A stretch of 64,000 nt of DNA from Escherichia coli (GTDB lineage: Bacteria; Pseudomonadota; Gammaproteobacteria; Enterobacterales; Enterobacteriaceae): NCBI RefSeq assembly GCF_003790525.1, contig NZ_CP033635.1; one strand, given 5' to 3'. The translations under genes and the position numbers were made by a program. The notes beneath the pieces were generated by a model, which ran no database searches, was not told where the DNA came from, and saw only the letters and a program-made list of their open reading frames with translations. This document shows, one piece after another, positions 39,514-44,754 of this stretch (its first letter is position 1; each line of letters starts with the position of its first letter).

Positions 39514-42500
39514 ATGGCTTCAACAAATGCGCATCAAATAAAAAATAATGATCAAAACTCTTTATGTGGTCTGGGTGACAAAATACGCCGCCTGACCGCC
39601 GGAGTTTGTTTATTTACACAAATTTTTTTCCCCGTCATGGCGACGGCACAAAATGTGGTACACGCTAAGCCTCAGACGACAGTTTCATCTCCGTCCCCTC
39701 TAATAGAAAATAATACTGTGCCTTACACGCTTGGTGCGCTGGAATCAGCGCAAAGCGTTGCTGATCGATTCGGTATTTCACTGGAGGAGCTTCGTCGTCT
39801 TAATCAGTTCCGTACTTTTGCTCGCGGCTTTGATAACGTGCGCCAGGGTGAAGAGCTGGATGTTCCGGCAACAACCTTGCAGAAAAGTCATGAGCAACAA
39901 AATGCCGTACCGCCTGCGAATGGCGAAAACACGCTGGAGAATCAAATAGCCAGCACTTCGCAGCGAGTTGGCCCCCTGCTTTCACAAGATATGAATAGTG
40001 AGCAGGCCAGCGGCATGGCGCGTGGTTGGGCGTCTTCAGAAGCCTCAGGCGCGATGACTGATTGGTTAAATAACTTTGGCACTGCGAAAATCTCTCTGGG
40101 TGTGGATGAAGATTTCAGCCTGAAAAATTCGCAATTCGACTTCCTGCATCCGTGGTATGACACACCCGATTATCTGCTCTTCAGCCAGCATACCCTTCAC
40201 CGAACAGACGATCGTACCCAGATCAACACCGGTTTGGGCTGGCGTCATTTCACCCCCAGCTGGATGTCAGGCATCAACCTGTTTTTTGACCACGACCTGA
40301 GCCGCTATCACTCCCGCGCGGGGCTTGGCGCAGAATACTGGCGTGATTATCTGAAGTTGAGCAGCAACGCTTATATCGGCCTGACCGGCTGGCGTAGCGC
40401 ACCGGAATTGGATAATGACTACGAAGCCCGCCCGGCCAACGGCTGGGATTTACGCGCGGAAGGCTGGTTACCAGCCTGGCCACAACTGGGTGGAAAACTG
40501 GTCTATGAACAATACTATGGTGATGAAGTGGCGCTGTTTGACAAGAATGATCGCCAAAGTAATCCCCATGCTATTACCGCGGGCCTCAACTATACCCCCT
40601 TCCCGCTTCTGACTCTCAGTGCGGAACAGCGTCAGGGGAAACAAGGTGAAAATGACACACGTTTTGCCGTTGATCTGACCTGGCAACCCAGCAGTTCAAT
40701 GCAGAAACAGCTTAACCCGGACGAAGTGGCCGGACGGCGCAGTCTGGCCGGTAGTCGTTATGACCTGATTGATCGCAACAACAACATCGTTCTGGAATAT
40801 CGCAAGAAAGAGCTGATTCACCTGAGTCTGCAGGATCCGGTGAAAGGAAAGTCTGGAGAAATAAAACCGCTGGTTTCCTCGATACAGACCAAATATGCCC
40901 TGAAAGGCTATAACATCGAAGCCGCTGCGCTGGAAGCTGCCGGAGGTAAAGTCAGGACGTCTGGAAAAGATATCACGGTCACGCTGCCAGGTTACCGCTT
41001 CACTAACACTCCAGAAACCGATAATACATGGTCGATAGACGTTACCGCCGAGGATGTAAAAGGTAACCTGTCACGTCATGAACAAAGCATGGTCGTCATT
41101 CAGGCTCCGACATTAAGCCAGAAAGATTCTCTGTTATCCGTTAATCCGCTAACCGTAGCTGCAGATAAAAAATCGACGACCACATTGACCGTTACTGCAC
41201 ACGATTCCGACGGAACTCCGGTGCCGGGGCTGGCGCTGCAAACCCGCAGTGAAGGCGTTCAGGATATCACCCTGTCTGACTGGACAGATAACGGAGATGG
41301 TAGTTACACACAGATGCTGACCGCCGGAACGACATCAGGTTCAGTAACACTGACGCCGCAAATTAACGGTGAGAGTGCGGTAAAAGAATCCATCGTCGTT
41401 AATATCGTCCCTGTTGTCTCATCCCGCGACCATTCATCAATAACAATAGATAACGTATCGTATTATGCCGGAGACGACATCAAGGTTAGGGTGGAACTGA
41501 AAGACGACAGCAATCAACCGGTTGCTTATCAAAAAGAAGAATTGGTAAAAGCCGTTACTGTCGAAAACAGCAAACCTGGCGCCACGATTGTCTGGCACGA
41601 AGAGCAGCCGGGCGTTTATGCCGCGAATTATCCGGCCCATAAGCAAGGGACAGCACTAAGGGCACAACTTAGCCTTCACAACTGGAATGCTCCACTGCAA
41701 TCGCATATTTATAACATTGAGGCAAACCAGAATAAGGCTCGCGTCGCCACATTATCAGCGACAAATAATGACGTTTACGCCGATAAAAAGACATTTAATA
41801 CCCTCACGATCAACGTCACTGATGAGAGTGATAATCCCCTGACAAATCATCAGGTCACCTTTAAGAATGAAAAAGGAAGCGCTGAATTTGTCGAACCGCC
41901 GCAGCAAAATACGGATGCATATGGTGTTGCCACAATCAACATGGTAAGTCAGGTTGCGGAAGAAAATACGATTAGTGCCACGCTGCCAAATGGTTTCTCA
42001 CAACGGATAATTGCGAAATTCGTTAGCGATTCGAGTACGCCAAAATTCAAACAACTGGTTGCCGATCCAGATACCATTATTGCTGGCAACAGCCAGGGCA
42101 GTACTCTGACCGCCACCGTCACAGACTTTCATAACAACCCGTTAAAAGATATGAAAGTGAATTTTGTGGCACCTGGTGGCTCGCAACTGGACAACACGAC
42201 CGCCACAACAGACCAGTCCGGTATTGTGCGAGTGCACCTGACCAGTTCAAAAGCTGGTAGCTATTCCGTCGATGCCTCGCTTGAGGCGGATAAAAATATT
42301 CACCAGTCGGTCACGATCACCGTGGTCCCAAACAGGGAACAATCGGTAATGACCTTAAATGCCGGGTCGGGCAGTGCGATCGCTAACAATACAAATACCG
42401 TTATCCTGACAGCCAGTGTGAAAGATGTTTATGGACACCCGTTGCCGGATGAGGATGTGAAATTTACCTTGCCAGCCTCCATGACCGGGAACTTCACGCT

Positions 42501-44754: not shown

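What the first reader, a model, noticed from the sequence alone, without database searches (positions are those of the whole stretch)
39514..44754. Giant inverse-autotransporter adhesin inserted between yjiJ and kptA
The 1746-aa protein has a LysM-like segment, an intimin/invasin-type beta-barrel, about a dozen tandem Ig-like (Big_1) repeats and a C-type-lectin-like tip. It is absent at this position in K-12 and is a candidate adhesin/invasin. The near-identical repeat units may allow length variation by recombination.
Basis: partly seen in the sequence, partly recalled or inferred. Interest (0 to 1): 0.5.

Follow-up and report, generated by a model that had tools for sequence, protein, structure and literature searches.

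The report
Known E. coli adhesin gene iatD
This gene is iatD, an E. coli surface "inverse autotransporter" that was named and shown in 2019 to reach the cell surface and promote biofilm, so the finding is real but ordinary; its repeats are not near-identical and its length does not vary between strains.

Summary
The ORF at 39514-44754 (+, 1746 aa) is real. It is iatD. The protein is 100% identical to IatD of E. coli SMS-3-5 (EcSMS35_4876), and the whole window differs from that genome at 5 bases in 64 kb. Goh et al. 2019 (PMC6714894) cloned this exact protein. They showed surface exposure and biofilm formation on overexpression in K-12, but no autoaggregation and no binding to extracellular-matrix proteins.

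There is a LysM fold, an IAT beta-barrel (Pfam E 4.5e-109), nine clear Big_1 domains (about twelve Ig-like modules in all), and an invasin D4-D5-like C-type-lectin tip (model pLDDT 94; Foldseek to 1CWV E 6e-12).

Two claims fail or need correcting:
- The repeats are not near-identical. Amino-acid identity is at most 43% (median 22%), there is no DNA tandem repeat, and the longest exact direct repeat is 12 nt. All but one of the 58 uninterrupted copies among the 60 best-matching genomes span exactly 5241 bp; the exception spans 5240.
- The gene is not a simple insertion. It sits in a ~10.3 kb alternative haplotype (espX6-like gene, then yjiK and yjiJ alleles 81% identical to K-12, then iatD), present in about 12% of complete E. 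coli genomes.

Verdict: already known, low interest.

The parts
39304..39513 (+). yjiJ-iatD intergenic region (210 bp, AT-rich). It holds a GGAAGG Shine-Dalgarno sequence 5 nt upstream of the ATG and one weak sigma-70-like match at 39318-39347.
   Evidence: Sequence read directly. The promoter scan gave a 9/12 match, and the number of matches in the region is no higher than in shuffles. The promoter is therefore not established.
39514..44754 (+). iatD coding sequence, 1746 codons plus a TAA stop; inverse autotransporter IatD.
   Evidence: ORF. RefSeq annotation is iatD. The protein is 100% identical to SMS-3-5 IatD. The exact protein is on record on 660 contigs under the name 'inverse autotransporter IatD'.
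39514..39645 (+). Extended N-terminal signal peptide, residues 1-44 (basic KIRR, hydrophobic LTAGVCLFTQIFFPVMATA, then QN).
   Evidence: Read from the translation. This is an inference; no signal-peptide predictor was available. The segment is conserved in the N-termini of YeeJ-like relatives.
39712..39867 (+). Periplasmic LysM domain, residues ~67-118 (beta-alpha-alpha-beta).
   Evidence: The Pfam LysM match is weak and partial (E 0.055). A profile search against PDB sequences hits LysM proteins 4UZ2 (E 5.6e-4), 4XCM, 8I2E and 2MKX. The AlphaFold model has beta-alpha-alpha-beta topology with pLDDT 76-86. Most of the top Foldseek hits are LysM domains, including the intimin LysM region 2MPW, at rmsd ~2 A over ~50 residues.
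39955..40803 (+). Inverse-autotransporter beta-barrel (translocation) domain, residues 148-430.
   Evidence: Pfam IAT_beta PF11924, E 4.5e-109, model positions 2-279 of 279. PDB sequence matches to the invasin beta-domain 4E1T (E 9.8e-82) and the intimin beta-domain 4E1S (E 2.4e-67).
40831..44418 (+). Passenger rod of about twelve Ig-like modules, residues ~440-1635. Nine are clear Big_1/Invasin_D3 domains: 537-631, 745-836, 847-938, 946-1041, 1052-1135, 1149-1238, 1244-1333, 1346-1437 and 1443-1536. The others are a D00-like module (440-535), a divergent module (~640-740) and an Invasin_D4-like module (~1545-1635).
   Evidence: Pfam. An HMM built from the gene's own domains recovers nine strong hits plus one weak hit at 641-719. 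The NCBIfam intimin model aligns residues 154-530 to intimin 176-549. PDB matches to FdeC 4E9L and InvE 5N40 cover 527-687. The modules are divergent: at most 43% aa identity.
44431..44751 (+). C-terminal C-type-lectin-like capping domain, residues ~1641-1746, with conserved Cys1660 and Cys1742.
   Evidence: phmmer matches Yersinia invasin 1CWV D4-D5 at E 9.8e-7. The AlphaFold model of residues 1531-1746 has mean pLDDT 94.2 and pTM 0.87. Foldseek hits: 1CWV (E 6e-12, TM 0.78), intimin 1F00 (E 9e-6), and snake-venom C-type-lectin-like proteins. The two Cys, together with W1642, E1690 and W1691, are invariant in 31 homologues.
44770..44797 (+). Perfect 12-bp stem with a 4-nt loop, 16 nt after the iatD stop, between the convergent genes iatD and kptA. 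Candidate transcription terminator; there is no strong U-tract.
   Evidence: RNA fold gives -23.5 kcal/mol, z = -4.56, with 0 of 200 shuffles folding as well. The consensus terminator scan did not call it. The function is inferred.
34640..44907 (.). Alternative haplotype block relative to K-12: an espX6-like pentapeptide-repeat gene (34987-36960), divergent yjiK (37068-38057), divergent yjiJ (38125-39303) and iatD. The right-hand breakpoint is at the kptA stop codon.
   Evidence: blastn of K-12 against the window gives 95.6% identity up to 34639, no match for 34640-37220, 81.1% for 37221-39281, no match for 39282-44907, and 97.8% from 44908. Population counts out of 5426 genomes are 641 (iatD), 636 (window-type yjiK/yjiJ) and 639 (espX6 region). 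KptA ends [12 protein letters not shown] here and EW* in K-12.

Best explanation
The ORF is iatD, a chromosomal E. coli gene for a type Ve secretion protein (inverse autotransporter) of the intimin/invasin family.

Proposed mechanism:
- An extended Sec signal peptide takes the protein to the periplasm.
- A LysM domain (residues ~67-118) stays in the periplasm and tethers the protein to peptidoglycan.
- Residues ~148-430 form the outer-membrane beta-barrel.
- The C-terminal passenger is threaded out through the barrel. It folds on the surface into a rod of about twelve divergent Ig-like modules, capped by an invasin D4-D5-like C-type-lectin superdomain stabilised by a Cys1660-Cys1742 disulfide.

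On the surface it acts as an adhesin that promotes biofilm.

What is shown:
- Surface exposure and biofilm formation of that identical protein when overexpressed in K-12 (published, PMC6714894).

What is inferred from the family:
- Signal-peptide cleavage, peptidoglycan binding by LysM, BAM-dependent hairpin export, and the disulfide.

What is unknown:
- Native expression conditions and the ligand of the lectin-like tip.
For: Identity:
- The protein is 100% identical to SMS-3-5 IatD. The surrounding 20,236 bp differ from SMS-3-5 at 1 base, and the whole window differs at 5 bases.
- RefSeq calls the gene iatD at the yjiJ-kptA locus.
- The exact sequence is named IatD in NCBI.
- The gene size of 5,241 bp equals that given for EcSMS35_4876.

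Architecture:
- IAT_beta, E 4.5e-109.
- 4E1T and 4E1S barrel matches.
- Nine Big_1 domains and one Invasin_D4.
- LysM fold.
- C-type-lectin-like tip.

Function:
- Goh et al. 2019 report immunofluorescence surface detection, and static and flow-chamber biofilm, for pIatD in K-12 MS427/OS56.
- A later review lists IatD as 5e, 'biofilm formation'.
Against: - All functional data come from IPTG-driven overexpression in a K-12 background. Native expression of iatD has not been shown.
- The published assays found no autoaggregation and no binding to ECM proteins.
- No host-cell adhesion or invasion assay is reported in the text read here.
- The LysM match is weak by sequence alone (Pfam E 0.055). The fold-search E-values are only 0.01-0.05 because the domain is small.
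- No promoter could be called above chance.
Confidence: 0.93

Rival explanations
1. IatD is mainly a host-receptor-specific adhesin or invasin. On this view its lectin-like tip binds a defined host protein, as invasin binds beta1-integrins or intimin binds Tir, and biofilm formation is a side effect of overexpression.
For: The tip superimposes on invasin D4-D5 (TM 0.78, rmsd 2.5 A, E 6e-12) and on the intimin C-terminus (E 9e-6). The gene is found in pathogens such as O157:H7, O145 and bloodstream isolates. Goh et al. raise this possibility themselves.
Against: Sequence identity to the invasin tip is only 24%. In the phmmer alignment the invasin integrin-binding Asp911 aligns with Asn1664, though an Asp follows at 1665 (the invasin residue numbering is from my own knowledge). 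No ECM binding was found. SMS-3-5 is an environmental strain. No receptor is known.
Confidence: 0.25
2. iatD is a cryptic gene. It is transcriptionally silent under ordinary conditions, for example silenced by H-NS through its AT-rich upstream region, and contributes little in most carriers.
For: The 210-bp upstream region is AT-rich with no promoter above chance. The gene tolerates IS3-family disruption in two clinical isolates. The paralogue iatB gave no detectable protein in wild-type SMS-3-5 even when LeuO was overexpressed. H-NS silencing of other E. coli inverse autotransporters is from my own knowledge and was not tested here.
Against: The 5.2-kb reading frame is intact with an unchanged length in 57 of the 58 uninterrupted copies among the 60 best-matching genomes. 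Goh et al. report >98% aa identity across carriers. This argues for purifying selection and hence for use under some condition.
Confidence: 0.3
3. IatD is a length-variable adhesin whose repeat number changes by homologous recombination between near-identical Ig repeats.
For: The passenger is built from tandem modules of one fold. Some other inverse autotransporters, such as the Yersinia ruckeri invasin-like molecule, do have nearly identical Ig repeats (cited).
Against: There is no tandem DNA repeat and the longest exact direct repeat is 12 nt. Modules share at most 43% aa and at most 49% nt identity. Of 58 uninterrupted copies, 57 span 5241 bp and one spans 5240. Spot checks down to 91.5% identity differ by at most a few bases. 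Goh et al. found no repeat-number variation.
Confidence: 0.02
4. iatD arrived as a simple single-gene insertion into the 12-bp kptA-yjiJ spacer of a K-12-like chromosome.
For: K-12 has kptA and yjiJ 12 bp apart and no iatD. Other Escherichia species representatives have the K-12-type arrangement.
Against: The adjacent yjiK and yjiJ are 81% identical to K-12, against 96-98% for the flanks further out. The population is strictly bimodal: 636 genomes at >=95% identity and 4740 at ~81.5%, with none between. The count matches the iatD carriers (641) and the carriers of the espX6-like region (639). No integrase, tRNA site or flanking direct repeats were seen. The right breakpoint removes the kptA stop codon.
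Confidence: 0.1

Closest known systems
IatD of E. coli SMS-3-5 (EcSMS35_4876, ACB20062.1 / WP_000168882.1; Goh et al. 2019, mSphere, PMC6714894)
   Same: Identical protein sequence (1746 aa), identical gene length (5,241 bp), and the same yjiJ-kptA locus. The window is collinear with SMS-3-5 with 5 mismatches in 64 kb.
   Different: Nothing in the gene. The window differs from the reference record at five single bases, all outside iatD.
YeeJ (E. coli inverse autotransporter adhesin)
   Same: Same overall plan: signal peptide, LysM, barrel, Big_1 array and C-type-lectin tip. The N-terminal third is ~77% identical at the DNA level and the C-terminal 306 aa are ~50% identical. Both are reported to promote biofilm.
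   Different: Different chromosomal locus. YeeJ is longer (2,359 aa in SMS-3-5). The central passenger does not match at megablast sensitivity. IatD is a paralogue of YeeJ, not an allele.
Yersinia invasin (InvA; PDB 1CWV passenger, 4E1T barrel)
   Same: The barrel matches at E 9.8e-82. A single alignment stretch covers IatD 1257-1713 and invasin chain positions 25-462, at E 2.2e-23. The D4-D5 tip fold matches at TM 0.78, and the tip cysteine pair is conserved.
   Different: IatD has about twelve Ig modules where invasin has four, and it has a LysM domain. The tip is only 24% identical. Asp911 of invasin aligns with Asn in IatD. Integrin binding and invasion have not been shown for IatD.
Intimin (Eae; PDB 4E1S, 1F00, 2MPW)
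   Same: LysM, barrel, Ig modules and a lectin-like tip. The NCBIfam intimin model aligns with residues 154-530. The folds of the tip and of LysM match 1F00 and 2MPW.
   Different: The score of 366 bits is far below the intimin cutoff of 1400. The gene is not in the LEE and there is no Tir partner. The passenger is much longer.
IatC (E. coli inverse autotransporter)
   Same: It is the best NCBIfam match, aligning with residues 12-839 at 1117.7 bits. The domain plan is the same.
   Different: The score is below the curated cutoff of 2400. IatC is larger (2,934 aa), variable in length, and at a different locus.

Membership tests
Inverse autotransporters (type Ve secretion; intimin/invasin family) | Outer-membrane beta-barrel of the IAT_beta family | tested here: met
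   Pfam PF11924, E 4.5e-109, full model length, residues 148-423. Invasin and intimin barrel structures 4E1T and 4E1S match at E 9.8e-82 and 2.4e-67.
Inverse autotransporters (type Ve secretion; intimin/invasin family) | Inverted order: barrel N-terminal, passenger C-terminal | tested here: met
   The barrel is at 148-430. All Ig-like and lectin-like domains lie at 440-1746.
Inverse autotransporters (type Ve secretion; intimin/invasin family) | N-terminal Sec signal peptide | not testable with these tools
   No signal-peptide predictor was available. By eye, residues 23-44 (KIRRLTAGVCLFTQIFFPVMATA) have a basic then hydrophobic segment ending in an A-x-A-like site. The segment is conserved in relatives.
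Inverse autotransporters (type Ve secretion; intimin/invasin family) | Passenger of tandem bacterial Ig-like (Big_1 / Invasin_D3) domains | tested here: met
   Nine Big_1 hits with E values from 4e-19 to 7e-8, plus Invasin_D4. An HMM built from the gene's own domains recovers the nine.
Inverse autotransporters (type Ve secretion; intimin/invasin family) | C-type-lectin-like capping domain with a disulfide (present in intimin, invasin and the larger members) | tested here: met
   Model pLDDT 94.2. Foldseek hits 1CWV (E 6e-12), 1F00 (E 9e-6), and C-type-lectin-like venom proteins. Cys1660 and Cys1742 are invariant in 31 homologues. Formation of the disulfide itself is inferred.
Inverse autotransporters (type Ve secretion; intimin/invasin family) | Periplasmic LysM domain (present in the larger members) | tested here: met
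   Weak by Pfam alone (E 0.055). It is supported by a profile search against PDB sequences (4UZ2, E 5.6e-4) and by fold: beta-alpha-alpha-beta with pLDDT 76-86, with most top Foldseek hits being LysM domains, including intimin 2MPW. Peptidoglycan binding was not tested.
Inverse autotransporters (type Ve secretion; intimin/invasin family) | Passenger exposed on the cell surface | not testable with these tools
   Published for the identical protein: immunofluorescence of MS427(pIatD) (PMC6714894).
IatD orthologue group | Sequence identity with the type protein EcSMS35_4876 | tested here: met
   1746 of 1746 residues are identical to the SMS-3-5 translation. The same sequence is named IatD in NCBI.
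IatD orthologue group | Conserved chromosomal position between yjiJ and kptA | tested here: met
YeeJ | Full-length similarity and the yeeJ locus | tested here: not met
   Only positions 413-2208 of the 5601-bp query (window 39300-44900) match yeeJ, at ~77% identity. The C-terminus is ~50% identical at the amino-acid level. The locus is different.
IatC | NCBIfam NF040978 score above the curated cutoff | tested here: not met
   1117.7 bits against a cutoff of 2400.
Intimin | NCBIfam NF033627 score above the curated cutoff | tested here: not met
   366.1 bits against a cutoff of 1400, and the match covers only the barrel region.
Integrin-binding invasins (Yersinia InvA type) | Conserved integrin-binding Asp (Asp911 of InvA) in the lectin-like domain | tested here: inconclusive
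   In the phmmer alignment the position four residues after the conserved Cys is Asn1664, followed by Asp1665. The assignment of Asp911 rests on my own knowledge of invasin numbering.
Repeat-variable adhesins with near-identical tandem Ig repeats | Repeat units near-identical at the DNA level, and repeat number varying between isolates | tested here: not met
   Searches show no DNA repeats and at most 43% aa identity. One search shows spans of 5241 bp in 57 of 58 uninterrupted copies (one of 5240).

The most novel reading that the evidence does not exclude
The most novel reading not excluded concerns the setting of the gene, not the gene itself. On this reading, iatD is inherited as one unit with an espX6-like pentapeptide-repeat gene and with strongly divergent yjiK and yjiJ alleles (18-19% nucleotide divergence from the K-12 type). 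That divergence is greater than the distance from K-12 to other Escherichia species at this locus (2-8%). The ~10.3 kb block would then be an old introgression from an unsampled enterobacterial lineage, kept as a two-state polymorphism in about 12% of E. coli. The co-inherited genes might also act together.
Probability: 0.3. Interest if true: 0.3.

Novelty: already known. Interest (0 to 1): 0.08.

Why it matters
It matters little as a discovery. The gene, its name, its domain plan, its prevalence, its surface exposure and its biofilm phenotype were published in 2019, for this very protein from this very strain background.

This check adds three things. It provides structure-level confirmation of the LysM and lectin-like domains. 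It gives a clear negative on repeat-driven length variation. It also shows that iatD belongs to a larger divergent haplotype carried by about 12% of complete E. coli genomes, including O157:H7.

The real open questions remain experimental: when the gene is expressed, and what the lectin-like tip binds.

Tried and rejected
- Tandem Repeats Finder and the direct-repeat search on 39300-44900 found no repeats. This rejects the near-identical-repeat idea.
- My first pairwise-identity script used free end gaps and gave artefactual maxima (56% aa, 100% nt) from very short overlaps. I redid it with global alignments.
- NCBIfam has no model that IatD passes. The best match is the IatC N-terminal model, below its cutoff. 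IatC, intimin, SinH, YchO and Ilp membership are all rejected.
- Pfam alone did not call LysM or a lectin domain. Both needed structure prediction.
- A scan of 100,044 species-representative genomes with the IatD passenger found no relative. That method finds close relatives only, so it shows only that no species representative carries a near-identical passenger.
- A second scan, with YjiJ, found no species representative carrying the window-type yjiJ allele or a neighbouring iatD. No donor of the haplotype was identified.
- The E69 locus (L010) carries a third yjiJ allele but has lost kptA, yjiH and yjiG, so it was uninformative.
- The promoter and terminator scans gave nothing above chance.
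- A literature search for 'IatD' found no functional study after 2019 in the library held.
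Full report
**Observation**

The window holds one uninterrupted ORF at 39514-44754 on the + strand, encoding 1746 aa. GC content is 46-55%, close to that of its neighbours. A GGAAGG Shine-Dalgarno sequence lies 5 nt upstream of the ATG.

**Identity**

A megablast against 5426 complete E. coli genomes shows the gene annotated everywhere as 'iatD: inverse autotransporter IatD', lying between yjiJ and kptA.

- The window region 28068-48303 differs from E. coli SMS-3-5 (NC_010498.1) at 1 base in 20,236, and the IatD translation is identical.
- The rest of the window adds four more mismatches, so the window is SMS-3-5 or a very close relative.
- The exact protein is on record on 660 contigs under the name IatD.

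Goh et al. 2019 (mSphere, PMC6714894) named iatD (EcSMS35_4876; 5,241 bp) and cloned it from SMS-3-5. They reported the following:

- The protein is detected at the cell surface by immunofluorescence.
- It gives strong biofilm in static and flow assays when overexpressed in K-12.
- It causes no autoaggregation and no adhesion to ECM proteins.
- It has predicted Big1 repeats, a LysM domain and a C-type-lectin cap.

A 2020 review lists IatD as type 5e with the function 'biofilm formation'. No later functional study was found in the library held.

**Anatomy, checked independently**

- *Barrel.* Pfam finds IAT_beta at residues 148-423 (E 4.5e-109). The barrel matches the solved invasin and intimin beta-domains 4E1T and 4E1S (E 9.8e-82 and 2.4e-67).
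- *Ig-like array.* Pfam finds nine Big_1/Invasin_D3 domains between 537 and 1536, and an Invasin_D4 match at about 1564-1624.
- *Extra modules.* The NCBIfam intimin model aligns residues 154-530 with intimin 176-549. The segment after the barrel (about 440-535) therefore corresponds to the first intimin Ig-like module. The segment at about 640-740 gives only a weak hit to an HMM built from the gene's own domains. It is called Ig-like by inference only. This gives about twelve Ig-like modules.
- *Lectin-like tip.* Pfam did not call a lectin domain. I collected diverse homologues of the last 216 residues (282 representatives at E <= 0.001), aligned 31 of them and predicted the structure, which came out at mean pLDDT 94.2 and pTM 0.87. 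Foldseek against the PDB returns Yersinia invasin 1CWV first (E 6e-12, TM 0.78, rmsd 2.5 A over 198 columns). Intimin 1F00 follows (E 9e-6), and C-type-lectin-like snake-venom proteins appear further down.
- *Tip cysteines.* Cys1660 and Cys1742 are invariant in the alignment. Cys1660 aligns with the first Cys of the invasin tip disulfide pair (invasin numbering is from my own knowledge).
- *LysM.* Pfam gives only a partial, non-significant match (E 0.055). A profile of N-terminal homologues hits LysM proteins in the PDB (4UZ2, E 5.6e-4; 4XCM; 8I2E; 2MKX). The predicted structure of residues 45-140 has the beta-alpha-alpha-beta LysM topology at pLDDT 76-86. Most of its top Foldseek matches are LysM domains, including the intimin LysM region 2MPW.

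**What is wrong in the finding**

The repeats are not near-identical.

- Tandem Repeats Finder reports nothing.
- The repeat finder reports one 25-nt pair at 72% identity.
- The longest exact direct repeat in the gene is 12 nt.
- Global pairwise identity between the twelve modules is at most 43% (median 22%) in protein and 32-49% in DNA aligned codon by codon.

There is no substrate for homologous recombination, and the population shows no length variation. Of the 60 best-matching genomes, 57 have a span of exactly 5241 bp and one has 5240. The two exceptions (GN03551 and GN03139) carry an IS3-family insertion. Copies sampled down to 91.5% identity differ in span by only a few bases.

**Setting**

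K-12 MG1655 has kptA and yjiJ 12 bp apart and no iatD. The difference from K-12 is nevertheless not a clean insertion. Aligning K-12 to the window gives the following:

| Window coordinates | Content | Identity to K-12 |
|---|---|---|
| 28301-34639 | upstream flank | 95.6% |
| 34640-37220 | pentapeptide-repeat gene and surrounding sequence | no counterpart |
| 37221-39281 | yjiK and yjiJ | 81.1% |
| 39282-44907 | iatD | no counterpart |
| 44908-49015 | kptA onwards | 97.8% |

- The pentapeptide-repeat gene is annotated espX6 in O157:H7.
- Across 5426 genomes the yjiK-yjiJ segment is strictly two-state. There are 636 genomes at >=95% identity to the window and 4740 at about 81.5%, with none in between.
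- The number of window-type genomes matches the number carrying iatD (641) and the espX6-like region (639). I could not list every genome, so complete linkage is inferred from the matching counts and the sampled rows.
- The right breakpoint falls exactly on the kptA stop codon, which extends KptA from 184 to 194 aa.
- Representatives of other Escherichia species (E. whittamii, Escherichia sp. E1V33 and two others) carry a K-12-type yjiJ. It is 92-98% identical to K-12 and about 83% identical to the window. None of them has iatD next to it.
- No species representative carries a close relative of the IatD passenger.

The K-12-type arrangement therefore looks like the common state for the genus. 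The window-type block looks like a divergent import whose donor is not in the sampled genomes. This is an inference.

**Mechanism**

By homology with intimin and invasin (established knowledge of type Ve secretion), the protein is exported by Sec and the LysM domain stays in the periplasm on peptidoglycan. The barrel inserts into the outer membrane and the passenger is threaded out and folds module by module. The result is a long rod that carries the lectin-like tip away from the cell surface.

What is shown is the domain content and, from the literature, surface exposure and biofilm promotion on overexpression. What is not known is when the gene is expressed natively and what the tip binds. 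In the alignment to invasin, the integrin-binding Asp911 position is Asn1664, so integrin binding cannot be assumed.

A perfect 12-bp hairpin lies 16 nt after the stop codon (-23.5 kcal/mol, z -4.56). It is a plausible terminator shared with the convergent kptA, but it has no strong U-tract.

**Comparison and verdict**

The gene is IatD itself. It is a paralogue of YeeJ, with ~77% DNA identity over the N-terminal third and ~50% protein identity at the tip. It fails the curated cutoffs for IatC and intimin.

Novelty is 'already known'. The finding is a correct reading of the sequence with one wrong inference (repeat-driven length variation) and one oversimplification (simple insertion). Interest is low.

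Noticed in passing
window 1-64000: The whole window is collinear with E. coli SMS-3-5 (NC_010498.1, record 5031428 down to 4967429, reverse strand). There are only five single-base differences, at window positions 2714, 7090, 7815, 45642 and 55152.
   Followed up: yes
window 34987-36960: A low-GC (33-38%) gene for a 657-aa pentapeptide-repeat protein that is absent from K-12. The homologous gene is annotated as T3SS effector EspX6 in O157:H7. Unlike iatD, this gene does vary in length between strains (704 aa in strain ST70), and matches to other genomes break into two or three pieces.
   Followed up: partly
window 37221-39281: yjiK and yjiJ are only 81% identical to K-12 at the DNA level (YjiJ is 90% identical at the protein level). 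The population is strictly two-state: 636 genomes of the window type and 4740 of the K-12 type, with no intermediates. Other Escherichia species carry the K-12 type, so the window-type allele lies outside the sampled diversity of the genus.
   Followed up: partly
window 44875-44907: The right end of the variable block removes the K-12 kptA stop codon. KptA is therefore 194 aa here (ending [12 protein letters not shown]) against 184 aa in K-12 (ending EW).
   Followed up: yes
NZ_CP147535.1 4162890-4169469 and NZ_CP147532.1 4162019-4168596: In two human isolates (GN03551 and GN03139) an otherwise 100% identical iatD is split by an IS3-family element of about 1.3 kb.
   Followed up: no
window ~49000-64000: Beyond hypT lies a block of accessory genes that K-12 lacks at this position: nhaC, ibeA, dhaR, gcl, hyi, glycerate kinase and others. 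It looks like the ibeA-containing GimA island known from extraintestinal E. coli. The island name is from my own knowledge.
   Followed up: no
window ~21000-26000: This stretch holds remnants of restriction and defence genes: a partial DUF262 gene, a GmrSD-domain endonuclease, symE, a fragment of a type I restriction enzyme, and a 3'-5' exonuclease. It appears to be the variable 'immigration control' region of E. coli.
   Followed up: no
L027 9962-15248 (Citrobacter sp. Cu233): A 1042-aa inverse autotransporter, 45% identical to the IatD N-terminal part, lies about 1 kb downstream of a YjiJ-family MFS transporter gene. The flanking genes are otherwise different (yiaA-like, phnS-like). This may be coincidence or a recurrent pairing.
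   Followed up: partly
window 44824-44850: The sequence GCCTGATCCGCTGCGCTTATCAGTCCT, between the iatD hairpin and kptA, resembles a degenerate REP element. This was seen by eye only.
   Followed up: no
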